Source: a bacterium (GTDB lineage: Bacteria; Electryoneota; Electryoneia; Electryoneales; Electryoneaceae). Taken from it: 64,000 bases of DNA. Under the pieces are notes generated by a model. The model was not told the origin of the DNA. It ran no database searches and saw nothing but the letters and a program-made list of their open reading frames with translations. Shown here one piece after another: positions 24,486 to 49,248 of this stretch (positions are counted from its first letter, which is position 1; each line of letters begins with the position of its first letter). The position numbers were made by a program, and so were the translations under genes. The stretch spans positions 2,752,001 to 2,816,000 of the forward strand of contig CAXXKJ010000002.1 in the NCBI GenBank assembly GCA_963675295.2. The letters run 5' to 3'.

Positions 24486-24486
24486 C

Positions 24487-24942: not shown

Positions 24943-25111
24943 CGTCTCCGGGTTGACAGTGTTCCTCGCGTCAGAGTGGCACAAACTGCTCGAACAGCAC
25001 TGCGGAGATGAATACGCGGCTCGTAGGAGCACCGGTTCACACGTACTGATCGTCTCTAAATCGGCTGATCGAGAGGCGCTGCAAGCGTGCCTGGATGCTG
25101 TCTACAGATAA
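24890..25111 (+). CDS. Small hypothetical protein, paralogue 3
   Basis: RRLKTLED...SEW..LL.QHCG.E...TG; GAGGA RBS. Confidence 0.6.
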   Translation: MISKMKRRLKTLEDRLNSVSGLTVFLASEWHKLLEQHCGDEYAARRSTGSHVLIVSKSADREALQACLDAVYR

Positions 25112-27351: not shown

Positions 27352-27376
27352 CTAGACAAGCTACGGCAGATTTATC

Positions 27377-27409
27377 AAAGGGCGCTTCGGTCACATCGGG
27401 CGCCTTTTT
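27377..27409 (+). terminator. Putative intrinsic terminator
   Basis: AAAGGGCGC...GGCGCCTTTTT. Confidence 0.5.
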
Positions 27410-27801
27410 CTGTAACTTCCTATACGAAGGCGTTCAAAGGGAAAGTTATGGAAAATCGTGTCCAACCCGCCCTATGTGCCCCACGAAAAATTTCCAGAAA
27501 ATATATCAGTGCGTTCGATCCCGAGGCTCCGTAGGTACCGGTTTACGGGGTATTTCCACGCAGGCCGTATCTCCACTACGGGGGCCGTTTCTGCGCAAGA
27601 CAGGTTTTCACGCACTTTTTTGTGTTGTCTCGCTGCAGCGCGCTGCGTGCAGCACCTTGAATCGGGGGATGTCAGCACACAACAAAACAAAAATGAGAAT
27701 CCGGATTGCTGGGATAGCAAGCCTGATACACAAACCGTATATTGATTTTCAGGGATCGATCTAAGCCACGCAGCTGGGATCAGTATCTGGGGGAGGGAAT
27801 C

Positions 27802-29637: not shown

Positions 29638-29671
29638 GCGGAAATTCTGCCAGTATCTGGGGGAGGGAATC

Positions 29672-31495
29672 GTGAAAAAGCTCGTCATTCTTTTCTTTGC
29701 CATCCTGATGTGCACCACTGCATCCGCACAAGAGTGGGTCGAACACGCCGTGGACGGCGATTCATTTGGTGCTTGTTCCGCATACGCCATGGATATTGAC
29801 GGCGATGGCGATATCGACGTGCTTGCTGCAGCGACGTTTGCCCATGAGATAACCTGGTCGGAGAACACAGATGGATTGGGCACAGTCTGGACCGAACACA
29901 CCGTGGACGGCAATTTTGGCTACACAGAGTCTGTTTACGCAACAGACATTGACGGTGACGGTGACATCGACGTAGTTGGTGCGGCGACTGAGGACCTAGT
30001 CACTTGGTGGGAAAATGTTGCTGGATCTGGCACGGTATGGACCGAACACACCGTGGACAACAATATTGATAACCCGCGTTCTGTTTACGCAACAGACATT
30101 GACGGTGACGGTGACACAGATGTGCTCGGTGCTGCATATTTTGGAGATGAAATCATTTGGTGGGAAAACGTTGACGGCGCGGGCAGTGCGTGGAACGAAC
30201 ACACTGTGGATGGTGCTTTTGAAGGTGCAATCTCGGTGTACGCAACAGATATGGACGGCGACGGCGACACCGATGTGCTTGGTGGGGGGTTTCATGCTGA
30301 CGAAATCACATGGTGGGAGAACACCAACGGTGTCGGCACAGTCTGGACAGAACATACCATAGACGGTGATTTCGAAGCGTTTTCCGTTTACGCAACAGAC
30401 ATTGACGGCGACGGCGATGTCGACGTTTTTGGTGGTGATACGGGTTTTTCTGTCCAGGGCCTCACGTGGTGGGAGAACGTTGATGGTGCCGGCACGGTGT
30501 GGACCGAATACCTATTGGACGGCGATTGCGTTGGCGTACGTTCCGTGTATGCGACAGATGTTGATGGCGACGGCGACACTGACTTGCTCGCAGCAGATCA
30601 GTGGGAGAACAACATCTCGTGGTGGGAAAACGAGAATGGCGATGGCAGCGAGTGGATCAGACACACTGTAATTGGAGATTTCGAGGGCCCTCAATCTGTT
30701 TACGCCACGGATATTGACGGTGACGGCGATATCGACGTACTTGGTGCGGCTAACCCAGGCTACGAAATAGCATGGTGGGAACAGGTGAATGCGGAACTCA
30801 CCCTTGTTCCTCATCAAACCACAGTTCCTTCCGGTGGTGGACACCTAATCTTCGATGTGACCTTATCTATCCCCGGAAATGTTCACATGCTTCATGCACA
30901 GTTTTGGACGGAGCTGACATTCCCGAATGGCGGCGAATGCTTGCTGCATATGCGTGCATTTGAAGTTGATCCGTTCATGAATTTATCGTTCTCAGATATC
31001 GCAACACAAAATGTGCCAGCTGCCGCTCCGCCTGGGATTTACACATACACCGCCAGTGCGGGTCGGAACGGTTTTCCTCGATTGATTGAAGTCACGGATT
31101 CCTTCGAGTTCGAGAAATTGGGCGATGCAACTGTATGCAGTAACTATGTGTTCAAGCCCGACGATTGGCAGTTCAACGGTCTGGACTTTGGATCGGAAGC
31201 GGGTGATGTTCAAGCGACCATTGTACCTGACGAGTTTATGGTGACAGCTCCCTACCCGAATCCCTTTAATTCGACCACCTGCATTAGTATCAGACTGCCG
31301 GAAACAACTAAGCTGGAGGTGACTGTATTTAGCGTGACCGGGCAGCGAGTCGTTAAACTGGCGAACGGCCGGTATCAGGCCGGATCGCACACGCTGACCT
31401 TCGACGCGTCCAACCTCGCGTCCGGCCTGTACTTCATCCGCGCCACCGTGCCTGGCCAGCTCGACCAAGTGCAGAAGGTGATACTGGTGCGCTGA
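29672..31495 (+). CDS. Secreted FG-GAP repeat protein with T9SS-type CTD (tandem paralogue)
   Basis: Same 21-nt upstream leader and similar signal peptide as 27802; seven repeats; YPNPFN tail. Confidence 0.85.
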   Translation: MKKLVILFFAILMCTTASAQEWVEHAVDGDSFGACSAYAMDIDGDGDIDVLAAATFAHEITWSENTDGLGTVWTEHTVDGNFGYTESVYATDIDGDGDIDVVGAATEDLVTWWENVAGSGTVWTEHTVDNNIDNPRSVYATDIDGDGDTDVLGAAYFGDEIIWWENVDGAGSAWNEHTVDGAFEGAISVYATDMDGDGDTDVLGGGFHADEITWWENTNGVGTVWTEHTIDGDFEAFSVYATDIDGDGDVDVFGGDTGFSVQGLTWWENVDGAGTVWTEYLLDGDCVGVRSVYATDVDGDGDTDLLAADQWENNISWWENENGDGSEWIRHTVIGDFEGPQSVYATDIDGDGDIDVLGAANPGYEIAWWEQVNAELTLVPHQTTVPSGGGHLIFDVTLSIPGNVHMLHAQFWTELTFPNGGECLLHMRAFEVDPFMNLSFSDIATQNVPAAAPPGIYTYTASAGRNGFPRLIEVTDSFEFEKLGDATVCSNYVFKPDDWQFNGLDFGSEAGDVQATIVPDEFMVTAPYPNPFNSTTCISIRLPETTKLEVTVFSVTGQRVVKLANGRYQAGSHTLTFDASNLASGLYFIRATVPGQLDQVQKVILVR

Positions 31496-31852
31496 AGCAG
31501 CCCGGTTCCACAGGGAGCTTCTAAGAGTCGAAAGCGGCCACAGGTCAAATACCTTGACCATGTGGCCGTTTGTCGCTCAGGGGCGCTCTATTGGCCTTTC
31601 TGGCGTGTAGAATCTCAAGCAGCGTACAGGAAAGCGATCAGGGATGTGGTTATGGTACGAGTTACACTATTTGATTTCGAATCCGGCAGAAGGCCCATCC
31701 CGCATGGCTTTCGCCGCTCTAAATTTGGTGCAAATGAGGTGCAGTGAGGACAACAAACTGCCATATTCAGCAAACAGCGCCAAGAGTTAACCTCTTAAAG
31801 AAACAATTGGTAACAATTGCAGCTTGTTGTGATATATGGTATTGCTAAGACT
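31441..31852 (+). repeat. Internal copy of the element's right arm
   Basis: Collinear with ~43554-43965: CTD 3' end, CGGCCACAGGTC..ATGTGGCCG hairpin, TCGAATCCGG, ATTTGGTGCAAATGAGGTGCAGTG, TGCTAAGACT; stop-to-core distance 354 nt in both. Confidence 0.85.
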
Positions 31853-31895
31853 ACGGATCAGGAGGTTTGGGGTTCGAATCCCTACAAGAGTACCA
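31849..31895 (+). pseudogene. 3' half of tRNA-Arg(ACG), relic att site
   Basis: GA-CTACGGA-TCAGG anticodon arm, TGGGG-TTCGAAT-CCCTA T-arm, ends ACCA; no D-arm or 5' acceptor strand upstream. Confidence 0.85.
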
Positions 31896-31899
31896 TATG

Positions 31900-31930
31900 A
31901 AAGGGTCAGGCAGCTGCCTGACCCTTTTTC
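31900..31930. terminator. Bidirectional terminator
   Basis: Perfect 28-bp palindrome AAAGGGTCAGGCAGCTGCCTGACCCTTT. Confidence 0.75.
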
Positions 31931-32476
31931 GTAGCGCAAGACGGACTAGATTCAGAAAACGAATCGAACTCGGAAAGAAACCAGATCAACCACTGGATCA
32001 CTGGGTATAGTCATCCGTCCTTCCGCATCGATACCCCAATGATCGCCGAGGCGCAAGTTCAGCCCCGCAAACGCGTGTCCCTTGAACAATAGCGAGGTTC
32101 GGCTGTGCTGTTCGAGTAATCCGCCCGCGAACACGGTTGAATATTTGCCATGCATCCCGGGACCCGCTGACAGAACAAAGGTCAACCTGGACAATACGGG
32201 GAAATCATGCCGTGCAAGGGCGAACAAGGAACTGACACCTATCATTGTCCTCGTGATGTCCTCTTTTTTTATTGCGACTAGAGTCTCGAACCGAAGTTCA
32301 GGATCTAGCAACCACTCGGTATCTAATCGCCATTGGCTTCCTCCCTGCCAAGCGGTGTCCATGTACCCAAACGGATATGCTACGGCAGCGCTGATAGAGA
32401 ATTGGGACTGCATGCCCTGACAGTCTTGTGGCACCAGCAAGAGGATGCTCAAAATCGCCAGACATGTAAAAATAAA

Positions 32477-33003
32477 CTACCCCGCAGCAAGCTACGGGGT
32501 ATCGACTACTCACAGCTCAAGTCGACTTTGATGTAGCGGCTGGTAGTTAGCTTCTGTACCTTGGTTCATAACGTATTTTCTGATTGTATTTTCGTCACCG
32601 TGCGGACCTACGGTGGATATATAATAACCTTTTGTCCAAAATTCCCCACCCCAGAGCTGCTTTTTAACTTTGGGTTGTCGGATAAACATCTCTCGTGCTG
32701 TTATGCTCTTTATAGTTCGTACTAATTTTGTAGCACTCATGGTTGGCACGGATTGCACTAAGAAATGCACATGATCTCTATCTATTCCAATTTCTATAAA
32801 TTCTATTTCATAACGTTTTTGGATTTCAAAGCAGATATCCTTTAATGTTAAATCTATCTCAGGTTCATCAAATACAACACGACGGTATTTCGCTACACAT
32901 ACAAGATGGTATAGCAATATCGATACGTTGTGTTGTTTTCGGATCAGCTCAGACATTCCACAAGAAACCAACTGCAGCTGGCCGAAGCAAGCTTCGGGGC
33001 ATC
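32477..33003 (-). mobile_element. IS200/IS605-family insertion sequence (tnpA only)
   Basis: Subterminal hairpins TACCCCGCAGCAAGCTACGGGGTA and CCGAAGCAAGCTTCGG; AT-rich; ends approximate. Confidence 0.8.
32510..32956 (-). CDS. tnpA: Y1 HUH transposase
   Basis: YHLVCVAKYRR, DHVHFL (HUH), LWGGEFW..GYY, YV.NQ. Confidence 0.92.
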   Translation of the reverse strand: MSELIRKQHNVSILLYHLVCVAKYRRVVFDEPEIDLTLKDICFEIQKRYEIEFIEIGIDRDHVHFLVQSVPTMSATKLVRTIKSITAREMFIRQPKVKKQLWGGEFWTKGYYISTVGPHGDENTIRKYVMNQGTEANYQPLHQSRLEL

Positions 33004-33047
33004 AACCGCACTGGAGTGAAACATGTACTTGCGTATCATCATCATCC

Positions 33048-33515
33048 TCACGATTTCAGCTCGATGACCAGCACCATGTGTGAGCTGCTGTTTGTCTTGG
33101 GGACAACGGGTTCTGTTTCAACAGGATCATCCCCACCCCCTGTTTTGTATACATGTTCGCCACTCAGGGAAGCGATACCACCGATATACACGGCCAGGAG
33201 ATAAATGCCGTCATCGACCGAATGATTGTCATCATCGGTGTAATCCCACTGCACGGTGTGAACGCCGGCAGCAAACATGCCCTTTGCAAGATCACGGACC
33301 AACTTGCCGCTGGGCTCGTAAACGGCAATCGAGGCCGAGGATGAAGCAGCCAGGGAAAATTCAATCTCGATCGGAACATCCCGGTTGGTGACTACGACAT
33401 CGACATCGTCCTCATCATACAGCGTCGGTTCGACAAGGTTCTCTGTGTCACAGCCGCACAGCAAGCCAATCAGTATCAACAATGGAATCCACGGAAGTAG
33501 CGCATGTCGTCGCAT
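33048..33515 (-). CDS. Lipoprotein with FlgD-like Ig domain
   Basis: LCGC lipobox; IAVYEPSGKLVRDL..G...G.HTVQWD.TDD....DGIY. Confidence 0.7.
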   Translation of the reverse strand: MRRHALLPWIPLLILIGLLCGCDTENLVEPTLYDEDDVDVVVTNRDVPIEIEFSLAASSSASIAVYEPSGKLVRDLAKGMFAAGVHTVQWDYTDDDNHSVDDGIYLLAVYIGGIASLSGEHVYKTGGGDDPVETEPVVPKTNSSSHMVLVIELKS

Positions 33516-33576
33516 GTTGTCCCCCTACAAGGGGCCTGCCAGGTTCGACAGGCCCACATTGCGTGCTCAGATGGAT

Positions 33577-35436
33577 TTATCGGACCAGCATCACCTTCTG
33601 GACGTCGTTCAACTCGCCAGGTACAACCGTGCGGATGAAAAACAGTCCGCTGGCCAAGTGAGATGCGTCAAACACCAGCCCATGTGTGCCGGCGGAGTGT
33701 TCTCCATCAGCCAGTTGCATCACGAATTGGCCGGTGACGTTGTACACCGCGACGCTTAGATCGGCTGTTTCGGGAAGGTTGACATGAATCGTGGTCGTTG
33801 GATTAAACGGGTTGGGATAGGCGGCGCTGCACTCATACTGCAACGGCAACCCATCGTTGTCAGATGCTTTGGTTGTTACAGCTGAATGGGTGAACGCAGA
33901 GTGAACACCATCCGCTCGCCAGTGTGTACTTGAGTTGCCGGGAGCTGTGTTTCCCGCGACGATTTCAAAATCAAACTCGTCGCTGCCTACGACCGCATAC
34001 GGGAAACGTCCGGCGTACATGCGGTAGGTATAGGAACCAAGCGGAGCATTTCCGGGGATTTGTTGCCCGAGACCTGATGCGAAGAGTACACCGCCCGGAG
34101 CGATCGGTAGTTGTTCGATCAACCACACAGGCCCGTATTCATCGCCATTGGGAAGGACCGCTACGGTCCAGATGTCGACATAGCGGAATGTGGGTAGCAG
34201 GCTGTGAATGACCGCGTCATATTGAAAGTACCCACCGCGCTGGACATGCAACATCGGCTGAGCGATCAGAGTCACATCGAACAGGTTTGGCAACTCAACT
34301 GGTCCAACCTGCTCCCACAGGGTGATTTCCTGGGCGTAGACTGCGGATCCTAGCACGTCGATGTCGCCGTCTTCATCCATATCCATGGCGAGCACATAGA
34401 ATGCACCATCGAAGTCGCCGTCGATTGTATGCTCGGTCCAGTTTGCCACATTGTTCGTGCCATCGTTCTCCCACCACGCAACCTCACCGCCGGTGACGGC
34501 TGTTGCGAGAATGTCGGTGTCACCATCTCCATCAACGTCTGACGCATACACACCTGCTGCCCAGTCAAAATCATCGCATACGGTGTGTTCGATCCAGTTG
34601 TCGACATTGTTGGTGCCGTCATTCTCCCACCACGTGACATCATCGTCATCCCGGCAGGTACCGAGCACATCGATGTCACCGTCACCATCCATATCTTCAG
34701 CGTAGACATACTGAGCCCCGGTGAACGCCCCGTCAATTGTGTGTTCGGTCCAATTGTCGACGTTGTTGGTGCCGTCATTTTCCCACCACGTGATGTCGTC
34801 GGCGTAGGATGCGGCTCCCAGAATGTCAATATCTCCGTCGTCGTCAACGTCTCGTGCGTAGATCCCATTTGCCCCGTCGAAAGCACCATCGACCGTGTGT
34901 TCGGTCCAGTTGTCGACGTTGTTGGTCCCATCATTTTCCCACCACGTGACATCATCGTCATCTTTCGCAGCTCCGAGCACATCTACATCACCGTCGCTGT
35001 CGACATCGATCGCGAACACACAGTGTGCGCTGTTGTAAGCGTTGTCGACCACATGTTCGACCCATACCTCGGTGTTACCGGCCCCGTCGCTTTCCCACCA
35101 GACGATTCGATCACCGAGCTTGTCTGCACATAACACATCGGTGTCACCATCTCCATCAACATCGATTGCATAGACATAAAATGGATCGATAACGGACGAT
35201 CCGACCAGATGCATCGTCCAATCGGCCAGATTGTTTGTGCCGTCATTCTCAAACCAGACGACCTCATCGTTGTTAATGATCCCAGCGATGATATCGATAT
35301 CACCATCGCCGTTCATATCGGTCGCATGCACCGAGCGGCAGTCAAACACACCATCCGCGGAGTGTTCGATCCATTGCTGAGCAGCTGCCAGAACCGGCAG
35401 CAAAATCGCAACCAAGACACACACTTTCACCTTCAT
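33577..35436 (-). CDS. Secreted FG-GAP repeat protein with T9SS-type CTD
   Basis: Signal peptide; seven repeats, several near-identical WWENDGTNNVDNW; YPNPFN..VQKVMLVR. Confidence 0.85.
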   Translation of the reverse strand: MKVKVCVLVAILLPVLAAAQQWIEHSADGVFDCRSVHATDMNGDGDIDIIAGIINNDEVVWFENDGTNNLADWTMHLVGSSVIDPFYVYAIDVDGDGDTDVLCADKLGDRIVWWESDGAGNTEVWVEHVVDNAYNSAHCVFAIDVDSDGDVDVLGAAKDDDDVTWWENDGTNNVDNWTEHTVDGAFDGANGIYARDVDDDGDIDILGAASYADDITWWENDGTNNVDNWTEHTIDGAFTGAQYVYAEDMDGDGDIDVLGTCRDDDDVTWWENDGTNNVDNWIEHTVCDDFDWAAGVYASDVDGDGDTDILATAVTGGEVAWWENDGTNNVANWTEHTIDGDFDGAFYVLAMDMDEDGDIDVLGSAVYAQEITLWEQVGPVELPNLFDVTLIAQPMLHVQRGGYFQYDAVIHSLLPTFRYVDIWTVAVLPNGDEYGPVWLIEQLPIAPGGVLFASGLGQQIPGNAPLGSYTYRMYAGRFPYAVVGSDEFDFEIVAGNTAPGNSSTHWRADGVHSAFTHSAVTTKASDNDGLPLQYECSAAYPNPFNPTTTIHVNLPETADLSVAVYNVTGQFVMQLADGEHSAGTHGLVFDASHLASGLFFIRTVVPGELNDVQKVMLVR

Positions 35437-35481
35437 GATTTCCCCCAGTACTTGTCTTCGCTATTCCTTTCCTTCTTATAG

Positions 35482-35497
35482 TGCAAGTGTTGCGCCA
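35482..35497 (-). promoter_or_regulatory. Sigma-54 (-24/-12) promoter of the FG-GAP gene
   Basis: Minus strand TGGCGCAACACTTGCA vs consensus TGGCAC-N5-TTGCW. Confidence 0.8.
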
Positions 35498-35525
35498 GAT
35501 AGTACGGAGCACCTACACTTTTATT

Positions 35526-35538
35526 AATCAATGATTTA
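35526..35538 (+). promoter_or_regulatory. IHF-like site
   Basis: AATCAATGATTTA matches WATCAANNNNTTR, between promoter and palindrome. Confidence 0.55.
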
Positions 35539-35569
35539 ACCTAGAAAGACGTAGGAGGAGAAGTCAATG

Positions 35570-35609
35570 TGTCATCTCAGGATGACAGGGGTGTAATCTC
35601 GGGATTGCG
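35570..35609. promoter_or_regulatory. Candidate enhancer (UAS): TGTC-N10-GACA plus weaker second site
   Basis: TGTCATC-TCAG-GATGACA palindrome 35570-35587; degenerate copy at 35592. Confidence 0.65.
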
Positions 35610-35690
35610 CGGAAAACCGGAAAACGGTCGGAAGGTTGACAAGCACTGGTGGGATCCTGCCAGTAACCAGGGAAGCCATTCCTGATGCTA

Positions 35691-37070: not shown

Positions 37071-40000
37071 TGACTGGCTCCGCTTTTCTCGGCGTATCTC
37101 AACTCGATTCGCATGGTCGTACCCTGATCGGCCGATGATTCAGCAACGTAAATCGTGCCACCGAACCGTTGCAACAATTCCTTACTGCGATACAATCCGA
37201 AACCACCTCCCTCACCTCCGCCTTGGGCAGAAGTACTGAATGAGGCATCAAAGATGGCTTCCCAAAACTCCTCTTTGATGCCTGGTCCCGAATCGATAAC
37301 GTCCACCCTGACCATGACGGCAGACTGCTGCACCTGCAGACGCAGTTGCCTGGTCGTCCTGTTGGCCAGTACCCGCAGGCTGTTTTGAACCAGGTTGTCC
37401 AGCACGAACATCAGGTGTTGGCGGGGCAGCCTGACGAGCACATCTGCGGAATCGGTGTCAACCCTCAGTGTAATTCCCTTGGCAGCGATTTCGGATTCAT
37501 ATCGTTTCAGAACATCAGCAAGAACATCCGCCAGTACGGACGAGAACTCCGGCGACAGTTCAGCGCGCAAGCGGTCAATGCTCTCGTCAAGGTTTTCCAG
37601 CAGGTTCAACGTTTTCTCTGCATGCGGAATCTCTCCACGGACGATCGTGTCTTCCACTCGGCGCAGCCTCTGGTCCAACGTCCGCAGACGATCATTCAGC
37701 AGGTGCCCGTTCCCGCCGTTGACCTTCGTTGCTCGAGCCAGATGATCGATTCGCTGCAATGCTGGAAAGGTGTAGGTCTGAATCTGACTGATCAGCTCGT
37801 GAATGTGTCCTGCCAGTTCCGGACCGGGTTGCGTCGAACGATGGGACAGGTTCTGCAACAGGAATTTGAGACTGTCGACCGGACTTTCGACCTGCTTGTT
37901 CTGGTGCCGGAACTGAATCAGCTCGAGGTACAGCTGTTCACGATCCGTGTGACTGTGCGTTCGCTTCCGTGCCACTGCCCCGGGAATGGTCACCGTAGCG
38001 AATACGATCAGCGAGGCCCCGACATACCCGGCAACGAACCAGGGATAGAATCCCCAGAAGATGTACATCGCGAACAGCACAAAGGCTGCGAGCATCGCCA
38101 GTTTGCTGAGCGGTCGGCGCTTTTTCGGCCACAACCAGCCCATTAACAAGGCTGCCAACAGCAGCGGAAGACCCTGAAGCCAGAGTGGCAACCTTTTCAC
38201 CAGGTGCTGCACTGATGTTCGCCACAGAATCATCGGCGTCGCGACTGCCAGCTGGAACAATTGAGATCCAGATTCCACCACGGTGACAGTTGAACCCGCA
38301 CGGATGCCAGTCCTTAAGATTCGCAGTCCGGATGGGAAGACACATTCGAGATCAACGAGCCTTTGTTCGCCGGTTCCGAAGTGGATGGTTCTACTGGAGT
38401 GCGATGATTTTCCGCCGGTCTCAGCGGCTTGCCTGTATCCGAGCAATGCGTCCGACTCACCGAGACGACCATGGTGAAACAGTCGAACAACCGCCCCGAT
38501 TCCGTCACGGTTTGACTGAGTTCCGATCAGGTTCACTTTTAGGAATTGATTGTTATTGCATGGGTTGAGCTTCACTCGGTAATTGAGAAAATAGTCAACG
38601 ATGACGATGTCCAGATCGCCGTCATCATCGAGATCGCCACTAAGCAATCCATTCCCACCGCCAGAATCTTCAAATCCCGAGCCGATGATCTCATTCTTGA
38701 AACTGCCGTCTCCGTTGTTGATGAACAGGGCATTTTCCATGTCCACGTTCAGCAGGTACAGATCCAGCCACCCATCTTGATTCAGATCGAGAAATTCCGC
38801 TGCTTCGGTGGTGAAAGTCTGCGTGAGTGCAACCGAATCGGTGACATCGACAAATCCTTCTACTCCACGATTTTCAAGCAAGACGCCACTTTTACGATAG
38901 CTGTTCTCTGCTTCCGGATACCACGGCAGGTAGCAGGCATACAGGTCCAGATCTCCATCGTTGTCGTAATCCCCTTGACAGAATGTGTGATACGGATTGC
39001 CGCCCGGTTTTAATAGAATGTCCAACTGCTGTTCGGCAGCATTGAACTCAAATGCCCCCTGCCGGTAGTGAAGTTCGGTAAGCGGCGCATATAGATCAGA
39101 AATGCGATCCCCATCGTAGTCAGCAAATGCCGGGTGAGCAGTTCCGAGTCCATAGACCCAGTAGGCATCCAGACGGGAGTCAATGCGTTCATACCTTCGC
39201 TTTTTAACGGATTGAAACACATTGATTTTAAATTTGTTAACCTGATTCTCTTTCTTCCTGAAGTGATTGGCATAGCCATGATGAAGCAGGATATCCAGGT
39301 AACTGTCCTCGTCAAGATCCTGCACCAGAAAACCGGTCCAGTTCAATGGATCAGAAATGAAACCCCACCTTTCAGTCCCCGACTCAAATACTCCAGAACC
39401 ACGGTTTTCGAATAGCTGTGGCGGGCTTATGGCGTATTCGTTGGCCAGGAGGATATCCTGGTCGCCATCGTTGTCCAGATCGGCAAACAGCGCAGAGCTC
39501 CCCACTCCGATATCGCCGGCACCTTTCAATTTGGACTGGAAAAACTCTCCGTGACCGTTGTTAAGCAGCAACGGATTCGGATGCAGATGCGACGCGAAGT
39601 ACAGATCCAGGTCGCCATCACCGTCGGCATCTCCCAGCGCGGCAGCGTTGGGGTGGAATTTTGGCGAGTGGCTCAATTCATCCAGGGATTCGACAAGCGA
39701 GGGACTTGGATAATCCTCGAATGGACACAGGCGGGCGGGACCGACATAGATGTTATCCAGCCAGACATGCTGGATGCGTGTACCTCCGACATCGATTTCC
39801 AGCGAAGCCAGCCGGATGTTTCCAGCCAGGTCCGGGTATTGCGATTCAAGCAACCGTACGAGGCTGTCCACGGATACCGAAACACAATGCCATCGATTCG
39901 GTACCGTGGGTATCAGGCATTCATAGCTGAAGGTATACCGTGTACATGCATACCAATCGTAGTAGAACAGCCGTGAACTGTCCTGTGGCACCTTGAAATT

Positions 40001-40468
40001 CAGCCGCACGTTGGTGAAGTTCGTTTCCCACACGTCCGATACTTTCCATTCCCAGCGAAATGTGGTTGCTTCGTCGGGGCGAACATTCATCCAAGGTTGC
40101 AGGTCACGGCGAATCCTACAGCGTTGATTACCAGCCGGATCGAACAAGCTGACATCGAGACGCAACGTGGATGATCCGTCATGACCCGTGTTTGGTTCGA
40201 TGGAAAGGGACGTTGCCCCCGCCTCTTCGGCGATGTACCACGGCGAGGGAGTTGTCCGGTCGAACTCGTCAATCAGTGCGGTTATCTGTGCGGATGCTGA
40301 GGAAATTATGCACAGAGTCAGGATGGCCAGGAGCGCAATTGTTCCTGTTTCGTGCAGCGTTTGGCGTGATATATCTGGCATGCCCCACTTCATGCCCACT
40401 GTCCCCCAATTCGTCGGATTGAAGTGACTCTCCGATGAACCCAGGCAAGATATGTGCCTCATGATCAC
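37067..40468 (-). CDS. Membrane sensor histidine kinase with extracytoplasmic FG-GAP/ASPIC-UnbV (CRTAC1-like) domain; start may be downstream (~40393/40381)
   Basis: Signal peptide; DxDxDGDLD repeats; SNRDGIGA.V..HFG.G ASPIC motif; TM helices; N box LDNLVQNS, DSGPGI, FST, GGGFGL. Confidence 0.85.
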   Translation of the reverse strand: MIMRHISCLGSSESHFNPTNWGTVGMKWGMPDISRQTLHETGTIALLAILTLCIISSASAQITALIDEFDRTTPSPWYIAEEAGATSLSIEPNTGHDGSSTLRLDVSLFDPAGNQRCRIRRDLQPWMNVRPDEATTFRWEWKVSDVWETNFTNVRLNFKVPQDSSRLFYYDWYACTRYTFSYECLIPTVPNRWHCVSVSVDSLVRLLESQYPDLAGNIRLASLEIDVGGTRIQHVWLDNIYVGPARLCPFEDYPSPSLVESLDELSHSPKFHPNAAALGDADGDGDLDLYFASHLHPNPLLLNNGHGEFFQSKLKGAGDIGVGSSALFADLDNDGDQDILLANEYAISPPQLFENRGSGVFESGTERWGFISDPLNWTGFLVQDLDEDSYLDILLHHGYANHFRKKENQVNKFKINVFQSVKKRRYERIDSRLDAYWVYGLGTAHPAFADYDGDRISDLYAPLTELHYRQGAFEFNAAEQQLDILLKPGGNPYHTFCQGDYDNDGDLDLYACYLPWYPEAENSYRKSGVLLENRGVEGFVDVTDSVALTQTFTTEAAEFLDLNQDGWLDLYLLNVDMENALFINNGDGSFKNEIIGSGFEDSGGGNGLLSGDLDDDGDLDIVIVDYFLNYRVKLNPCNNNQFLKVNLIGTQSNRDGIGAVVRLFHHGRLGESDALLGYRQAAETGGKSSHSSRTIHFGTGEQRLVDLECVFPSGLRILRTGIRAGSTVTVVESGSQLFQLAVATPMILWRTSVQHLVKRLPLWLQGLPLLLAALLMGWLWPKKRRPLSKLAMLAAFVLFAMYIFWGFYPWFVAGYVGASLIVFATVTIPGAVARKRTHSHTDREQLYLELIQFRHQNKQVESPVDSLKFLLQNLSHRSTQPGPELAGHIHELISQIQTYTFPALQRIDHLARATKVNGGNGHLLNDRLRTLDQRLRRVEDTIVRGEIPHAEKTLNLLENLDESIDRLRAELSPEFSSVLADVLADVLKRYESEIAAKGITLRVDTDSADVLVRLPRQHLMFVLDNLVQNSLRVLANRTTRQLRLQVQQSAVMVRVDVIDSGPGIKEEFWEAIFDASFSTSAQGGGEGGGFGLYRSKELLQRFGGTIYVAESSADQGTTMRIELRYAEKSGASQ

Positions 40469-40531
40469 GAAGTAAAAAACGTTCCGCTATCCCGCATTTG
40501 TTCCTCCCCTGCAAAGCTCTCGACAGAAAAG

Positions 40532-40570
40532 TGTCTCCCACGTATGACAGGTTGTCAGCTGAAACAGACG
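40532..40570. promoter_or_regulatory. Tandem TGTC-N10-GACA sites
   Basis: TGTCTCCCACGTATGACA (40532) and TGTCAGCTGAAACAGACG (40553), 21 bp apart. Confidence 0.6.
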
Positions 40571-40644
40571 GATGCTTCATCGGCTCGCATGTTGGAATTT
40601 TCTAAACCATTGTTTATTCAAATCTTGTTTCCAACCTCAACCTC

Positions 40645-40660
40645 AGGCCCTGTGTTTGCG
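40645..40660 (+). promoter_or_regulatory. Candidate sigma-54 promoter
   Basis: AGGCCCTGTGTTTGCG (GG-N10-GC with TTGC), ~75 bp downstream of the tandem sites. Confidence 0.55.
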
Positions 40661-40671
40661 AATGTTGTGGC

Positions 40672-40878
40672 TGTCCAAGGGTGACGTAGTCGCGCGGACT
40701 GGATTCGTACAGGGGAAGGGCTCAGGGGCTACCTCCAGTGAATCTACCCGCGCCCAATGGAGACACGCACGGCGGTTCCGCTTTCCCCCGTGTGGTATGA
40801 AACCCAGCGCTGATCCACGGATGCGCGAAATAAGACGTGCAAGGAGGGGAGGTTGGGATTCGTCCCAGCCTCCTTTCT
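40672..40878 (+). ncRNA. Candidate ~200-nt small RNA (or small-peptide transcript)
   Basis: Lies between a candidate sigma-54 promoter and a strong terminator; only ~18-20 codon ORFs are contained; several GGA/AGGG motifs. Confidence 0.4.
40848..40878 (+). terminator. Intrinsic terminator
   Basis: GGAGGTTGGGA-TTCG-TCCCAGCCTCC-TTTCT. Confidence 0.7.
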
Positions 40879-40958
40879 GGTTCATCAAGGCGTCTTTGTC
40901 GGAGCACGGTTTCGAAACCTCCAGCAACCGATCCAGCAGTCCTGTTTCCAGGCAAACC

Positions 40959-40997
40959 TGTCTCCCTTGGAAAACAGTTTGTCATCCAGCGAAGACA
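40959..40997. promoter_or_regulatory. Tandem TGTC-N10-GACA sites
   Basis: TGTCTCCCTTGGAAAACA (40959) and TGTCATCCAGCGAAGACA (40980), 21 bp apart. Confidence 0.6.
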
Positions 40998-41068
40998 CTA
41001 TTGTGGTGCTTTACTCCCCACCGAATGCAAAGCATTTGATTCCACTGAAATTACCAATTCTGGTTTTT

Positions 41069-41084
41069 CGGCATTCGATTTGCC
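41069..41084 (+). promoter_or_regulatory. Candidate sigma-54 promoter of the beta-helix gene
   Basis: CGGCATTCGATTTGCC (GG-N10-GC). Confidence 0.65.
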
Positions 41085-41148
41085 CATAACAACGGGAAAG
41101 GAGAAAAGGCATTCAGCAGCATGAAGTTTGGAACAGGGGGACAGGATC

Positions 41149-43608
41149 ATGTGTAAGCGTTGGACTGGAGTAGCTCTTGGCATTTTTTTGCTGGTTTCGG
41201 CAGGTATCGCTCAAACTGAAATCAGTGGTCCGCAAAGCGGAACCATCACAGCTGGCACGTACATCGTAGTCGGCAGCCTTTCAATCGTAAACGGTGAGTC
41301 ATTGACCATCGAACCGGGAACAACGTTTCTGTTCGATGGCGAACACGACTTTTTTGTTGGTTCAAACCGCACGTTGACCTGTGTCGGCACCGAAACGGAC
41401 AGCATCAAGTTTCTGCCGAATGTCGACAACGGCGTCACTGAGTGGGGGCACTTTTCGTTTATCAACTCGGGCAACGACGATCAGTTCGCGTATTGCTTGT
41501 TCTCTGGCGGGTGTTCTGAAAATTTTGGCGGTGCAATCGACTGCGCGAATTCAAGTCCATCGCTATCAAACTGTGTGATCCGGGATTGCATGGCAGACGA
41601 TTTTGGAGGTGGAATTGCATGCAGAGATGCTTCCGACCCGGTAATTGATCAATGCACGATTACTGGTAATTCGGCTTATGTTGGAGGTGGTGTTTACTGT
41701 TCTGAATCACAATCAACATTAACACAGTCATTAATCAGAGATAACAGTTCATATTCTGATGGTGGAGGCCTCTATTGCATTGATAATTCTGATTTAGGTG
41801 TATCAGACTGTATCTTCATCACAAATATCGCTGGTAGTAACGGTGGTGGAGTTTACTGCAATAATTCAATACCAAATCTTACGGCCTGCTCGTTTGATAG
41901 CAATCATGCTTTTTATGGAGGAGGTCTGTACTTTTATAACTATAGTAATGCGATAATCGAAAACTCATCAATAACAAACAATGTAGCTACTTCTCAAGGA
42001 GGTGGTATAATGTGTCATTTATATTCAGACTCTTTTATTAAATACTGCAATATTTCAAATAATACGGCAACAAGCAGCCATGGAGGTGGGATAAACTGTG
42101 GTCAGTATGCCGATGCTACCATTGAATATTGTACCATTGCCAATAATTTTTCAGGTGCACATGGGGGTGGTATTATCTCGGTAGGGTCTACTATCGATGT
42201 ATCTTGCTGTACTATTACTTCAAATACGTCAAATGCAAATACAGGAGGTATCTTTCTCCAACATCAAACGCCAAGTGTTGCAAATTCAATCGTATCCTTT
42301 AACACTGGTGTAGGTATTTATCTTGATGCTGGATCTCCTGAAGTCATGTTTTGTGATGTCTACAGCAACTCAGGAGGCGAATATGGAGGCAACGCACTTG
42401 ATCCAGATCTTGGTGTCATCGTCGGTGAGAACGCCAACGGGGATCCGTGCGACGCGTTCCACAACATCTCGATGGATCCGTATTACGTCGATGCTGCCAA
42501 CGGGGACTACCACCTGACGTACGGTTCGCCATGCATAGACGCCGGCGATCCGGACAGCCCGCCGGATCCGGACAATACCGTCGCCGACATCGGTGCGTTC
42601 CCATTCAGCCACGGACCCGCGATCCTGGTCACAGCCCCGACCGCCGGAACCGTCTTGATGCGAGGTGACAGCTTCGACATCACGTGGAACGACAACATCA
42701 CCGAAATGGTCTCGATTGAGCTGCACCAGGGGGGGAACCTGGTTGAAGTTCTTACCGACGGCACGGAAAGTGACGGCGTATACGAATGGGATATCACCGA
42801 GGACGGCCCGGTCGGCGATGACTTCACCATCGTCATCACCAGCACCACCGATCCGGGGGTAACCGACAGCAGCGATGAATTCACACTTGACGAACCACCC
42901 CTGCTGATCCTCGAACTGGTCGCGGATGACACCCTGATCGTGCCCCAGGGAGGTTCGTTTGAGTACGGTGTGATTCTGGAAAGCAATCTGGCAACGACGC
43001 ATATCGGGGATCTGTGGACGGAAGTGGATCTTGTGAGTGGGTACACGTACGGACCCATCTGGCTGTTGAGCGATATTTCCGTCGGGCCGAACACATCTCT
43101 GGTCGCTGAAGGCATCGGGCAGGCGATTCCGGCGACAGCAGCACCGGGCTATTACACTTTCCGGATCGAAATCGGTTACTTCCCCAGCTATTTCGTGTTC
43201 TCCGATGAAATCACAATTGAGGTTACCGAGGTACCCGTGGCTGGAATCAGCGGTTCAGAACCGGTCGATGATTGGCATGCGTGGGGGTACCAGGATGCGT
43301 TCAAGTTAAATATTGCTGCTATTGTGGACACCGAGCTCCCGGACGAATACAGCATGTCGCCGGCCTACCCGAATCCATTCAATCCGACCACGACTGTTTC
43401 CGTCAGCTTGCCGGAAACGGCAAGGCTGAAGGTGTCCGTGCTCAACATACTTGGCCGGAAGGTTGCTGAACTCGCTGACGGATCCTTCAGCGCCGGAGAA
43501 CACAATATCGTTTTCGACGCCACGAGACTTGGGAGCGGTTTGTACTTTATCCACGCTACCGTTCCTGGACACCTTGACCAGGTGCAGAAGGTGATGCTGG
43601 TGCGTTGA
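41149..43608 (+). CDS. Secreted right-handed parallel beta-helix repeat protein with Ig-like domains and T9SS-type CTD
   Basis: Signal peptide; repeated N.A..GGGIxC; DYHL..GSPCIDAGDP; YPNPFN..ATVPGHLDQVQKVMLVR. Confidence 0.85.
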   Translation: MCKRWTGVALGIFLLVSAGIAQTEISGPQSGTITAGTYIVVGSLSIVNGESLTIEPGTTFLFDGEHDFFVGSNRTLTCVGTETDSIKFLPNVDNGVTEWGHFSFINSGNDDQFAYCLFSGGCSENFGGAIDCANSSPSLSNCVIRDCMADDFGGGIACRDASDPVIDQCTITGNSAYVGGGVYCSESQSTLTQSLIRDNSSYSDGGGLYCIDNSDLGVSDCIFITNIAGSNGGGVYCNNSIPNLTACSFDSNHAFYGGGLYFYNYSNAIIENSSITNNVATSQGGGIMCHLYSDSFIKYCNISNNTATSSHGGGINCGQYADATIEYCTIANNFSGAHGGGIISVGSTIDVSCCTITSNTSNANTGGIFLQHQTPSVANSIVSFNTGVGIYLDAGSPEVMFCDVYSNSGGEYGGNALDPDLGVIVGENANGDPCDAFHNISMDPYYVDAANGDYHLTYGSPCIDAGDPDSPPDPDNTVADIGAFPFSHGPAILVTAPTAGTVLMRGDSFDITWNDNITEMVSIELHQGGNLVEVLTDGTESDGVYEWDITEDGPVGDDFTIVITSTTDPGVTDSSDEFTLDEPPLLILELVADDTLIVPQGGSFEYGVILESNLATTHIGDLWTEVDLVSGYTYGPIWLLSDISVGPNTSLVAEGIGQAIPATAAPGYYTFRIEIGYFPSYFVFSDEITIEVTEVPVAGISGSEPVDDWHAWGYQDAFKLNIAAIVDTELPDEYSMSPAYPNPFNPTTTVSVSLPETARLKVSVLNILGRKVAELADGSFSAGEHNIVFDATRLGSGLYFIHATVPGHLDQVQKVMLVR

Positions 43609-43961
43609 TGCAGACAGGCTCCACAGATCGATTTTAAAGAGTCACTCTCGGCCACAGGTCAAATACCCCGACCATGTGGCCGTTTGTTGCTCAGTGGCGC
43701 TTTACAGGTGTTTCTATCGCGAAGAATCGCAAGCATCTAGTGGATGGCTGCACAGTGAGCGCAGAGGATACGAGGTTCACTGAATGACCTCGAATCCGGT
43801 AGAGGCTATATTTTATATAGGATTACCCACTCCGTATTTGGTGCAAATGAGGTGCAGTGCGGACAACATACGACCACATTCAGCCACTTATTTCAAGAGC
43901 TAACCTATAGTATAATCAATCGTTAACAGTTGCGACTTGTTGTCGAATATTGGCGTGCTAA

Positions 43962-44011
43962 GACTGTTAATCACTAGGTTGGCGGTTCAAGTCCGTCCTG
44001 GGGAGCAAGAA
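43962..44011 (+). repeat. attR (3' part of tRNA-Asn)
   Basis: Identical to 18741-18790. Confidence 0.95.
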
Positions 44012-44017
44012 GCAGAC

Positions 44018-44050
44018 AAGGGTCAGGCAAACGCCTGGTCCTTTCTTTTT
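44018..44050 (+). terminator. Terminator after attR
   Basis: AAGGGTCAGGC-AAAC-GCCTGGTCCTT followed by T-run. Confidence 0.65.
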
Positions 44051-44485
44051 TCCGTTTCGACCGATCCAGAACCGCTCGACTTTCTTCGTACCGTTTCCAG
44101 CCAAGCTGTCTTGATGACACCCAAGGACACTCCCAAACCACTCCCTCAAGCCCTGAGTGCATGAGAACGAAAGCTGGCCCAAGTTAACGCACAACTGTCC
44201 CACATCGTGAAGAAATGAGGCACGGTATGGGTCTTTTCCCTCATACAAGATATGCCTGGCCTGGACGCATCCGAATTCCTTCTTTCCCGGCACGGACCAC
44301 CTTGGAATCCGACTTAGCCTTTACTTCGATTGGTGAATTCGTTACCTTCTTCACGAAGCCGTGACGGGTTTGTTCAGTGGTCACGGTGCACCGCAATTTT
44401 TGTCCCCTGCGATGCGGTCACAACCCTGTAGATTCAAAGTGTGCAGTCTGGTTTCTATCGTCCACTCTTGATGAAAAGGTCAACG

Positions 44486-46291: not shown

Positions 46292-46310
46292 TGAACAACT
46301 CGAGTAGACT

Positions 46311-49168: not shown

Positions 49169-49248
49169 TAGCGTAACCGTTGGCAGGCAGCAAAAACGCT
49201 TGAACGTACGCCTTCAAAGCCTTTGAACAGAAGCTTCGTTGTTGTACT

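What the first reader, a model, noticed from the sequence alone, without database searches (positions are those of the whole stretch)
31441..44011. Element with two right ends aimed at two different tRNAs (Arg-ACG inside, Asn-GTT outside)
Seen: the right arm occurs twice, collinear, with the same 354-nt distance from the stop of a CTD-bearing gene to TGCTAA|GACT. The outer copy continues as the tRNA-Asn 3' half and matches attL. The inner copy continues as a tRNA-Arg(ACG) 3' half with T-arm, CCA and terminator. Both fragments begin at the same position of the anticodon arm and have GA-[7-nt loop]-TCA, differing in the loop (CTGTTAA vs CTACGGA). Known: many tyrosine integrases use the anticodon loop as the 7-bp overlap and need overlap identity. 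Inference: sibling elements can switch tRNA target by changing only the loop. The inner att would not pair with attL, so the 12 kb between the two ends travels as captured cargo, perhaps gained by recombination through the shared CTD+arm sequence.
Basis: partly seen in the sequence, partly recalled or inferred. Interest (0 to 1): 0.85.

Follow-up and report, generated by a model that had tools for sequence, protein, structure and literature searches.

The report
Stacked tRNA islands, one mismatched end
Three mobile-element units are stacked beside the single tRNA-Asn gene, and the first one ends in a leftover piece of a different tRNA (Arg), a footprint of how sibling elements recombine and change their chromosomal landing sites.

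Summary
Two collinear 353-nt arms each follow a T9SS-CTD gene and end in TGCTAA|GACT. The inner arm continues as a 47-nt tRNA-Arg(ACG) 3' half, the other as a tRNA-Asn half that repeats attL perfectly for 50 nt. The "outer" end is itself internal. The array runs from tRNA-Asn (18712) to a decayed Asn half and the native terminator at ~60.4 kb, in three units, and only unit 1 has an integrase. The Arg piece matches this genome's own tRNA-Arg(ACG) at 45 of 47 positions. Its two acceptor changes match no tRNA in 185,579 species, so it is a relic, not a working site. The pattern recurs: the genome's tRNA-Arg island holds an inner end with a tRNA-Pro(GGG) half (45/45). Arg- and Pro-locus siblings share 88% identity through the P' arm and integrase start but differ in the tRNA segment. 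A cargo cassette sits between different tRNA halves in a sister genome. Best reading: tycheposon-like elements stacked and reshuffled by recombination among siblings aimed at different tRNAs. The exact route (homologous or integrase-mediated) is unresolved. Only attL and the 43962 end are predicted to excise, as a 25.2-kb circle. This is a new variant of a known kind, of moderate interest.

The parts
18712..18785 (+). tRNA-Asn(GTT) gene, the only one in the genome; attL. The core GACT lies at 18741-18744, and 18741-18790 is copy 1 of the perfect 50-nt repeat.
18786..19124 (+). P' arm of unit 1: terminator hairpin (~18795-18822), then arm-type repeats GGTGCA-N5-GGTGCAG at 18836-18853 (+), 18982-18999 (-) and 18993-19010 (-).
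19125..20252 (+). Tyrosine integrase (Phage_integrase + Int_N). The likely start is the ATG at 19158. It is 81% identical to the G001 sibling and 63% to the integrase at the genome's tRNA-Arg(ACG).
20249..25111 (+). Unit 1 backbone: ORF194; a 69-aa ORF at 20934-21143 with a sub-threshold HTH_17 (excisionase-type) hit; ORF119; Prim-Pol/AAA_25/DnaB_C replication protein at 21489-23504; DUF5681 at 23704-24231; ORF221.
25252..31495 (+). Unit 1 cargo: three FG-GAP proteins with a T9SS C-terminal sorting domain (25252-27351, 27742-29637, 29672-31495).
31496..31848 (+). Inner P arm (353 nt): hairpin after the CTD gene (~31536-31572) and arm-type repeat at 31727-31744. Its proximal 150 nt are 78% identical to G001's arm, which is joined to a tRNA-Asn half.
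31849..31895 (+). tRNA-Arg(ACG) 3' half relic. It starts at G30 and includes the T arm and CCA. It matches the genome's tRNA-Arg(ACG) at 45 of 47 positions, with two G-to-A differences in the acceptor strand.
31897..31933 (+). Terminator hairpin of the type that follows att cores in this element family. No P' arm-type repeat follows it.
31952..43608 (.). Unit 2, with no integrase: ORF166 (-); IS200 copy at 32470-33020; FlgD_ig ORF; FG-GAP/CTD gene 33577-35436 (-); sigma-54 response regulator 35691-37070 (-); FG-GAP/ASPIC histidine kinase 37067-40468 (-); ORF155; beta-helix/CTD gene 41128-43608 (+).
43609..43961 (+). Second P arm (353 nt), with the arm-type repeat at 43840-43857.
43962..44011 (+). 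Copy 2 of the perfect 50-nt repeat (tRNA-Asn 3' half 43962-44006). An element-type terminator hairpin follows at ~44014-44046.
44050..60350 (.). Unit 3, absent from G001 and with no integrase: CTD genes, a sulfatase, two multihaem cytochromes, a Fer4/Pyr_redox protein, and a Kelch/CTD gene at 58785-60350.
60362..60436 (+). Decayed tRNA-Asn 3' half (~60362-60396) in register with G001's half, then the native tRNA-Asn terminator hairpin (~60392-60435). Synteny with G001 continues from 60554. This is the original right boundary of the array.

Best explanation
The interval is the middle of a ~41.7-kb array of three integrative-element units stacked at the single tRNA-Asn(GTT) gene (18712 to ~60400). 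The units resemble tycheposons: a tyrosine integrase, a primase/helicase and cargo, with each unit ending in a T9SS-CTD gene that reads toward a P arm.

Unit 1 is complete. Its P arm is joined, exactly at anticodon-stem position 30, to a relic 3' half of tRNA-Arg(ACG). Unit 2 has no integrase and ends in a homologous P arm joined at the same position to the tRNA-Asn half that repeats attL. Unit 3 is older, and its right att has decayed.

The inner end is a fossil right end from a sibling of the same arm family that carried a tRNA-Arg(ACG) segment. It came to lie in the Asn island through recombination between sibling elements. The first candidate route is homologous or ectopic exchange in shared segments (P' arm and integrase, CTD 3' end and arm, shared cargo). 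The second is an integrase-mediated exchange at the core between two sites that share TGA|CT..A|TCA.

The relic is inert. It cannot pair with attL, and if used at tRNA-Arg it would leave two acceptor-stem mismatches. The only competent pair is attL and the 43962 end, so units 1+2 should excise together as a 25.2-kb circle.

Shown: the anatomy, the homologies, the recurrence of the pattern and the reshuffling of cargo. Inferred: the order of events, the route of recombination and the excision behaviour.
For: Anatomy.

The array reaches 60.4 kb. G001 synteny resumes at 60554. A decayed Asn half and the native terminator lie at 60362-60436.

There is no integrase remnant in units 2 or 3.

The Arg half matches the genome's own tRNA-Arg(ACG) at 45 of 47 positions. 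All 10 native tRNA-Arg(ACG) genes read in relatives (8, 2) and G000's own have acceptor strand CAGGCGT. There was no exact match of the relic's T arm plus acceptor in 185,579 species.

The inner arm is like G001's Asn-attached arm up to TGCTAAGACT (78% against 67% for the outer arm).

Recurrence: of 12 displaced tRNA halves in the genome, 10 lie behind their own tRNA. The 2 exceptions are this Arg half and a Pro(GGG) half (45/45) in the tRNA-Arg island. Both are the first half after a family integrase.

Sibling similarity: the Arg and Pro loci are 87.65% identical over 915 nt.

Reshuffling: a cargo cassette 88% identical over 7.9 kb lies between Pro and Arg-ACG halves in G000 but between two Arg-CCT halves in G001.

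Family range: family integrases sit beside at least 15 tRNA species. Near-identical integrases sit beside different tRNAs in two clades.

Known models of accretion and island growth: PMC5704250 and bioRxiv 10.1101/2020.12.28.424599 (passages read).
Against: No step of the history is observed directly.

No sibling with GGTGCA-type arms beside a tRNA-Arg gene was found. The arm type occurs in only 3 of 16 genomes of the order, and in G001 and G003 it lies at Asn sites. The metagenome pattern scan gave 0 hits, and the closest metagenomic integrases are at most 52% identical.

A single homologous crossover of a circle predicts a second P'-integrase copy after the Arg half. None is there.

The two arms are now only ~70% identical, which is poor substrate for RecA.

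Unit 2 genes have no close relatives that would show their earlier context. The histidine kinase was found in 0 of 20 relatives at E<=1e-30. ORF166 gave only 3 weak hits in 60 relatives.

Short-read unitigs cannot bridge the 39-nt stretch shared with tRNA-Arg, so the assembly at 31.9 kb is not independently confirmed.
Confidence: 0.6

Rival explanations
1. Site-specific accretion across different cores. A circular sibling X had an attP made of the 43609-43961 arm, a tRNA-Arg half, a terminator and a P' arm. The integrase recombined it with unit 1's attR (inner arm plus Asn half) inside the shared TGCTAAGACT. The two present junctions are then the reciprocal products of one event. On this reading the inner arm is the Asn-cognate arm and the other arm is the Arg-cognate one. 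X later lost its P' arm and integrase.
For: - The switch from G001-like arm to tRNA-Arg lies exactly at the core.
- Ten identical bases precede both cores.
- Only two Asn halves exist in the genome, so the 43962 junction is the only candidate reciprocal product.
- Insertion into an attR harms no gene, whereas insertion into the single tRNA-Asn would.
- Integration of an incoming element into an att site of a resident one is the published accretion route (PMC5704250, passage).
- Both cores share TGA|CT..A|TCA.
Against: - Four of the 7 loop positions differ. From recalled knowledge of lambda-type integrases, such heterology blocks completion of exchange.
- There is no trace of X's P' repeats or integrase.
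- The same core-precise junction would also exist if unit 1 were simply an intact Arg-aimed sibling.
- No independent Arg-core element with this arm type was found.
Confidence: 0.2
2. Deletion in cis. A normal tandem array (unit 1, Asn half, P'-integrase of unit 2, and so on) carried a complete tRNA-Arg gene as cargo. The integrase then recombined unit 1's right-end core with that gene's anticodon loop. This removed the Asn half, unit 2's P' arm and integrase, and the tRNA's 5' half.
For: It explains four features at once: the missing integrase and P' arm of unit 2, the core-precise junction, the CCA and terminator after the fragment, and an acceptor strand unlike the host's.
Against: - No element-borne tRNA-Arg gene was seen in any sibling examined.
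- It needs the same heterologous-loop exchange as the accretion rival.
- The terminator after the fragment looks like the element family's att-linked terminators.
Confidence: 0.07
3. Working dual-target element. The inner end is a functional alternative right end that lets the element use tRNA-Arg(ACG) as a second landing site.
For: - The arm carries the same arm-type repeat as the other right end.
- The loop and anticodon stem match the host tRNA-Arg(ACG).
- The host has a sibling island at that tRNA.
Against: - The site has no P' arm next to it.
- Using it would install an acceptor strand with two mismatches in the single tRNA-Arg(ACG) gene.
- The parallel Pro half in the Arg island also lacks a P' arm.
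Confidence: 0.05
4. Assembly artefact. The contig was joined wrongly through the 39 nt that the fragment shares with the real tRNA-Arg gene.
For: Short-read unitigs end and start inside that shared stretch (pieces 30087-31886 and 31857-32498), so they do not bridge it.
Against: - The alternative joining would give the single tRNA-Arg(ACG) a mismatched acceptor stem.
- The two pieces overlap by 30 nt as expected for a graph branch.
- The genome is in 2 contigs.
- An analogous structure with a Pro half occurs elsewhere in the genome.
Confidence: 0.03

Closest known systems
Tycheposons (Hackl et al., bioRxiv 10.1101/2020.12.28.424599; passages read)
   Same: - A tyrosine recombinase, a primase/helicase module and cargo, integrated at tRNA genes.
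- New arrivals push older ones inward.
- Partial tRNAs and decayed remnants build large islands next to the tRNA.
- Recombination and captured flanking DNA are proposed as sources of island material.
   Different: - That paper says integrases cluster by the tRNA they target. Here near-identical integrases and P' arms sit beside different tRNAs.
- The passages I read mention partial copies of the island's own tRNA between elements, not halves of another tRNA.
- The host here has a T9SS and the cargo is T9SS-secreted proteins.
- Membership of this integrase in the tycheposon recombinase clade was not tested.
ICE/IME-CIME site-specific accretion (ICESt1/ICESt3, IME_Sag2603_tRNAlys), as reviewed in PMC5704250 (passages read). 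The primary papers by Pavlovic 2004 and Bellanger 2011 were seen only in its reference list.
   Same: - A tandem array with internal att sites.
- Integrase-less units that keep att flanks.
- An incoming element that integrates into an att site of a resident one.
- A composite predicted to excise as a whole and carry the decayed unit in cis.
- A 'chimerical attI' is described.
   Different: - In those cases all att sites derive from the same target gene. Here the internal site carries another tRNA's half.
- No relaxase, coupling protein or T4SS domain was found in unit 1, so it is not an ICE or IME by gene content.
Islander-type tRNA islands and their tandem arrays; anticodon-centred (A) attP class (PMC4383910, passages read). 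Williams 2002 was seen only as a reference.
   Same: - An intact tDNA plus a displaced 3' fragment in the same orientation, with a tyrosine integrase between them.
- The identity block starts in the anticodon stem.
- Tandems are known (125 with two or more among 3919 islands).
   Different: - Islander pairs a tDNA only with its own fragments and requires an integrase per array member. It would therefore not report the Arg half in the Asn island or the integrase-less units.
Secondary-site integration and altered cores of phage lambda (recalled, no paper read)
   Same: Integrase can act at sites that resemble the core, which links an arm to new flanking sequence exactly at the crossover.
   Different: Lambda cases change a few bases of the overlap. 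Here the whole 45-47-nt tRNA segment and its terminator differ.

Membership tests
tRNA-integrated genomic island (Islander signature) | Intact tRNA gene plus a displaced cognate 3' fragment downstream in the same orientation | tested here: met
   tRNA-Asn at 18712-18785 and a perfect 50-nt repeat at 43962-44011. A further decayed copy lies at ~60362-60396.
tRNA-integrated genomic island (Islander signature) | Tyrosine integrase gene inside, next to the tRNA | tested here: met
   Phage_integrase 4.2e-31 and Int_N 5.1e-08. R, HxxR, H and Y motifs are visible in the translation; the motif names are recalled.
tRNA-integrated genomic island (Islander signature) | Flanks conserved in relatives while island content varies | tested here: met
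   The left flank is 84% identical in G001. The right flank resumes at 60554. Only the integrase and arms of the island match G001.
Anticodon-centred (A) attachment-site class | Identity block runs from the anticodon stem/loop to the 3' end of the tRNA | tested here: met
   The repeat starts at G30 (18741 / 43962). The same start is seen for the Arg half here, G001's Asn half and the Pro halves.
Anticodon-centred (A) attachment-site class | Strand exchange within the 7-nt anticodon loop | not testable with these tools
   attL and the 43962 end are identical over 50 nt, so the crossover point cannot be read from sequence.
ICE/IME-CIME accretion | Three or more att sites in direct orientation, with an integrase-less unit between two of them | tested here: met
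   There are four att-type sites (18741, 31849, 43962, ~60362). Units 2 and 3 give no integrase hit.
ICE/IME-CIME accretion | All att sites derive from one target gene and can recombine with each other | tested here: not met
   The site at 31849 is a tRNA-Arg half whose loop differs at 4 of 7 positions. Recombination itself was not testable.
ICE/IME-CIME accretion | Conjugation or mobilisation genes (relaxase, coupling protein, T4SS) | tested here: not met
   None of the 14 different unit-1 ORFs scanned against Pfam has such a domain (9, 6, one ORF scanned in both).
Tycheposon | Tyrosine recombinase plus a primase/helicase replication module plus cargo, at a tRNA | tested here: met
   Integrase; Prim-Pol/AAA_25/DnaB_C protein; FG-GAP/T9SS cargo. 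The sibling at tRNA-Arg has an NrS-1 polymerase-like protein.
Tycheposon | Integrase belongs to the tycheposon recombinase clade | not tested
Tycheposon | Integrases cluster by target tRNA (as stated in the preprint) | tested here: not met
   The G000 Arg-ACG and Pro-GGG integrases are sisters (164/178 aa identical). A metagenomic clade mixes Asn-GTT, Arg-TCT and Lys-TTT at branch lengths of at most 0.12.
IS200/IS605 (the insertion in unit 2) | Y1 transposase and several near-identical copies | tested here: met
   Y1_Tnp 4.1e-36. Seven further copies are at least 99% identical over ~551 nt.

The most novel reading that the evidence does not exclude
In this integrase lineage the landing site may be set mainly by the tRNA segment carried in attP. 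The enzyme itself would read only generic features of the anticodon arm (TGA|7-nt loop|TCA).

The 'wrong-tRNA' inner ends would then be footprints of a one-step retargeting route:
- An element aimed at tRNA X recombines into a sibling's island at tRNA Y.
- Excision between attL(Y) and the resident's outer right end gives a circle whose new attP couples the newcomer's integrase and P' arm to a Y core.
- The old X end rides along inside as a fossil, together with captured cargo.

The two composite islands in this genome (Asn with an inner Arg half, Arg with an inner Pro half) would be such intermediates.
Probability: 0.3. Interest if true: 0.7.

Novelty: new variant of a known kind. Interest (0 to 1): 0.5.

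Why it matters
tRNA-targeting integrases are usually treated as fixed address labels, one integrase lineage per tRNA. Island finders pair a tRNA only with its own fragments.

This genome departs from that in three ways:
- It has two islands whose first right end carries another tRNA's half.
- Sibling elements differ in the tRNA segment while their arms and integrase start are about 88-91% identical.
- One cargo cassette sits between different tRNA halves in two genomes of one genus.

This gives a natural series for asking how such elements change address and capture cargo. It suggests simple loop-swap and half-swap recombination assays. It also warns that automated island mapping will mis-place boundaries in such arrays. 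Here the true array is 41.7 kb, not the 25 kb between the cognate repeats.

Tried and rejected
- Host tRNA for the relic. I looked for a tRNA ending like the relic (exact 22-mer of T arm plus acceptor) in 185,579 species' genomes and found 0 hits. A host with another T stem would be missed.
- Sibling right ends in metagenomes. I searched for the pattern of arm-type repeat, an 85-115 nt gap and GCTAAGACT, and found 0 hits. Asn-type ends were not found either, so the lineage is simply not in that collection.
- Close integrase relatives. In metagenomes the best is 52% identical. In the genome collection the best is 80%, the sister genome, and the rest are at most 56%. None is informative about the GGTGCA arm lineage.
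- Unit 2 as chromosomal flank of a tRNA-Arg gene. The histidine kinase was found in 0 of 20 relatives at E<=1e-30. ORF166 gave 3 weak hits (26-29% identity) in 60 relatives, none in the same family. The earlier context stays unknown.
- Read-level check. Only Logan contigs of 4 runs from one study were on offer. Unitigs break at repeats, the listed joints have sides of at most 32 nt among paralogous CTD/FG-GAP genes, and run X4 covers the stretch only in low-depth patches. This gives no verdict on assembly or excision. attL and the 43962 end are also too far apart (25.2 kb) for one 20-kb lay.
- I replaced it with a BLAST version.
- I did not ask for supplementary files. The tycheposon preprint's supplementary examples of adjacent elements could bear on whether foreign tRNA halves were seen there.
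- Literature searches (listings and abstracts, three papers read in passages) showed no description of a foreign tRNA half inside a tRNA island. This is not exhaustive.
- G001's own tRNA-Asn array could not be read through, because its contig ends 2.2 kb after the tRNA.
Full report
OBSERVATION

The window holds one tRNA gene, tRNA-Asn(GTT) at 18712-18785. It is the only tRNA-Asn among the genome's 50 tRNA genes.

- A 353-nt arm (31496-31848) follows the stop of a gene with a T9SS C-terminal sorting domain (29672-31495).
- A second 353-nt arm (43609-43961) follows another such gene (41128-43608).
- Both arms end in TGCTAA followed by GACT.

The arms are homologous well beyond chance. Genome-wide blastn gives 71.9% over 484 nt at E 1.8e-65. 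Global identity is about 70% in both the proximal and distal parts. The exact arm-type repeat GGTGCA-N5-GGTGCAG occurs four times in 4.8 Mb, and all four are in this island: twice in the P' arm next to the tRNA and once in each right arm (window statistics).

After the second arm, 43962-44011 repeats 18741-18790 perfectly for 50 nt. After the inner arm, 31849-31895 matches the genome's own tRNA-Arg(ACG) 3' part at 45 of 47 positions, including CCA. A strong hairpin follows. Both fragments begin at G30 of the anticodon stem. The loops differ at 4 of 7 positions.

THE ARRAY IS LARGER THAN THE FINDING

Unit 1 (18786-31848) is a complete element:
- a tyrosine integrase;
- a 69-aa ORF with a sub-threshold excisionase-type HTH hit;
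- a Prim-Pol/AAA_25/DnaB_C replication protein;
- DUF5681;
- three FG-GAP/T9SS cargo genes.

Unit 2 (31897-43961) carries regulators, T9SS cargo and a young IS200 copy, with seven further copies at least 99% identical.

Neither unit 2 nor the DNA to its right holds any remnant of the integrase or the backbone.

Synteny with the same-genus genome G001, to the right of that genome's own arm and tRNA-Asn half, resumes in the window only at 60554. At 60362-60436 lies a decayed tRNA-Asn half, in register with G001's half, followed by the counterpart of G001's native terminator hairpin. So 44012-60350 is a third and older unit. It carries a sulfatase, multihaem cytochromes and CTD genes.

The 'outer' end of the finding is therefore internal. 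The array has four att-type sites, at 18741, 31849, 43962 and ~60362. Every unit ends in a T9SS-CTD gene that reads toward its arm.

WHAT THE ARG FRAGMENT IS

The genome's single tRNA-Arg(ACG) (C2:3167004-3167080) has acceptor 3' strand CAGGCGT, and so do all 10 native copies read in relatives (8, 2). The fragment has CAAGAGT. No genome of 185,579 species contains the fragment's T arm plus acceptor exactly. Its anticodon-stem 3' strand (TCAGG) is that of this genus, while other genera have TCAGA.

The fragment is thus a slightly decayed or never-used copy of this lineage's tRNA-Arg half. If it were installed at tRNA-Arg it would leave two acceptor mismatches.

The hairpin behind it resembles the terminators that follow att cores in this element family, but no P' arm-type repeat follows it.

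SIBLINGS AND RECURRENCE

The integrase family is common in the relatives (58 of 61 genomes have a match, mostly distant). Family integrases sit about 300-450 nt downstream of many tRNAs:
- in relatives and in G000: Asn-GTT, Arg-ACG, Arg-CCT, Met-CAT, Pro-GGG, Lys-CTT, Lys-TTT and Ser-TGA;
- in metagenomes: also Leu-TAA, Leu-CAA, Thr-CGT, Arg-TCT, Asp-GTC and His-GTG. Twenty of the 35 metagenomic loci scanned had a tRNA.

The closest sibling (G001, 81% integrase identity) ends in an arm plus a tRNA-Asn half. Its proximal arm is 78% identical to the window's inner arm but only 67% to the other arm. The resemblance to the inner arm holds right up to TGCTAAGACT.

A 74% sibling in G003 lies upstream of a tRNA-Ser(TGA) half.

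The genome's own tRNA-Arg(ACG) carries a sibling island with a 63% identical integrase and a different arm repeat, GGGGCA-type.

That island has the same odd build. Its integrase-bearing unit ends, after a CTD gene and an arm, in a tRNA-Pro(GGG) half that matches the tRNA-Pro gene at 45 of 45 positions (C2:3174580-3174624). Then comes an integrase-less unit ending in an arm plus an Arg-ACG half. Then comes another unit ending in an Arg-like half with a different loop.

Genome-wide, 12 displaced tRNA halves exist. Ten lie behind their own tRNA gene. The two exceptions are the Arg half in the Asn island and the Pro half in the Arg island, and each is the first half after a family integrase.

The Arg- and Pro-locus elements are 87.65% identical over 915 nt, through the P' arm and the first half of the integrase gene. 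The P' arm is 87.9% identical, against 58.8% for the tRNA half plus terminator. The integrase fragment is 164/178 aa identical.

A metagenomic clade shows the same thing. An Arg-TCT locus and a Lys-TTT locus have 90.9% identical P' arms, against 63.3% for the tRNA part. In the tree these integrases and an Asn-GTT one lie within 0.12 substitutions per site.

ANTICODON ARMS OF THE TARGETS

In all three close-sibling switches the tRNAs share TGA|7-nt loop|TCA. The three are Asn/Arg-ACG here, Arg-ACG/Pro-GGG, and Arg-TCT/Lys-TTT/Asn-GTT. Arg-ACG and Pro-GGG share the whole 5-bp stem. Only 6 of the genome's 50 tRNAs have this feature.

I defined the feature after seeing the first cases, so only the metagenomic trio is an independent check. 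Across the whole family 9 of 29 neighbouring tRNAs have it, so it is a property of clades, not of the family.

RESHUFFLING

The integrase-less unit of the Arg island occurs in G001 as a cassette 82-88% identical, with 7.9 kb at 88%. There it lies between two tRNA-Arg(CCT) halves, with a remnant of a P arm but no core on its left, and with no integrase within 40 kb. Cargo units and att modules are therefore exchanged between tRNA loci in this genus.

MECHANISM

The following points are shown:
- a stacked array;
- a core-precise junction between an arm of the Asn lineage and a tRNA-Arg half;
- recurrence of such junctions;
- near-identical siblings on different tRNAs;
- cassette reshuffling.

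The rest is inferred. The Arg end is a fossil of a sibling that carried an Arg segment, brought into the Asn island by recombination among siblings.

Two routes fit:
- Homologous or ectopic exchange in shared segments. This needs no unusual enzymology and fits the cassette reshuffling. It does not explain the missing second P'-integrase copy, and the arms are only 70% identical today.
- One integrase-mediated exchange between unit 1's attR and an Arg-core attP, within the shared TGCTAAGACT. This makes the two junctions reciprocal products and fits the published accretion route of integration into a resident att site (PMC5704250). It requires tolerance of four mismatches in the loop.

The G001 comparison does not decide between them, because close siblings can differ in target.

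Either way the Arg end should be inert. The predicted excision pair is attL with the 43962 end, giving a 25,221-bp circle with units 1 and 2. This was not tested.

COMPARISON WITH KNOWN SYSTEMS

The elements work like tycheposons and like accreted ICE/IME-CIME arrays (passages read), and they carry the Islander signature of the anticodon-centred class.

They differ in three ways:
- the foreign tRNA half at an internal site;
- integrases that do not sort by target among close relatives;
- no conjugation genes.

I found no description of such foreign halves in four literature searches. The searches are not exhaustive, and I did not see supplements.

VERDICT

This is a new variant of a known kind. 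Interest is moderate (0.5). The feature is not a new machine. It is a clear, twice-repeated natural record of how tRNA-targeting elements swap addresses and capture cargo.

Noticed in passing
G000 contig C2:3167004-3209034 (outside the window; loci L127-L129): The tRNA-Arg(ACG) island has the same build as the window's island. The integrase unit ends in an arm plus a tRNA-Pro(GGG) half (3174580-3174624, 45/45). Then comes an integrase-less unit ending in an Arg-ACG half (3195720-3195764, one mismatch). A third unit ends in an Arg-like half with loop CTTCGAA (about 3208985-3209032).
   Followed up: partly
G000 contig C2:3700103-3709990 (locus L130): The tRNA-Pro(GGG) island has an integrase cut off after about 510 nt and fused to a CTD-like 3' end. 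Its attL and attR share not only the tRNA half but also the terminator.
   Followed up: partly
G001:C72:34367-43986 (loci L132, L137, L138): A cargo cassette 82-88% identical to part of G000's Arg island lies between two tRNA-Arg(CCT) halves. A coreless P-arm remnant sits on its left, and there is no integrase nearby.
   Followed up: partly
window 32470-33020: An IS200-type insertion (Y1 transposase) has seven further copies at least 99% identical in the genome, so it was recently active.
   Followed up: yes
window 31536-31572 and 43650-43685: A conserved strong hairpin sits just after the CTD genes at the start of both arms (z -6.5 and -4.6). It is probably the terminator of the cargo gene. 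G001's arm does not share it.
   Followed up: partly
window 51754-57002: Unit 3 carries two large multihaem cytochromes (Cytochrome_C7, MtrC/MtrF-like domains) next to a Fer4/Pyr_redox protein. This looks like mobile extracellular-electron-transfer cargo.
   Followed up: no
G000 contig C2:4439111 and C2:720395: ARAGORN reports a tRNA of unknown type with a four-base anticodon (tttc) and a tRNA-Ile(aat) with an odd loop. These may be pseudo-tRNAs or unusual decoders.
   Followed up: no
G003:C80:9729-16009 (locus L027): A 74% sibling integrase lies 4 kb upstream of a tRNA-Ser(TGA) half (14807-14849). An unrelated tyrosine integrase (31%) follows that half, so this is another mixed array.
   Followed up: partly
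metagenome loci L050, L053, L055, L056, L059, L061: A clade of near-identical integrases lies beside tRNA-Asn(GTT), tRNA-Arg(TCT) and tRNA-Lys(TTT). The Arg-TCT and Lys-TTT loops differ by one base.
   Followed up: partly
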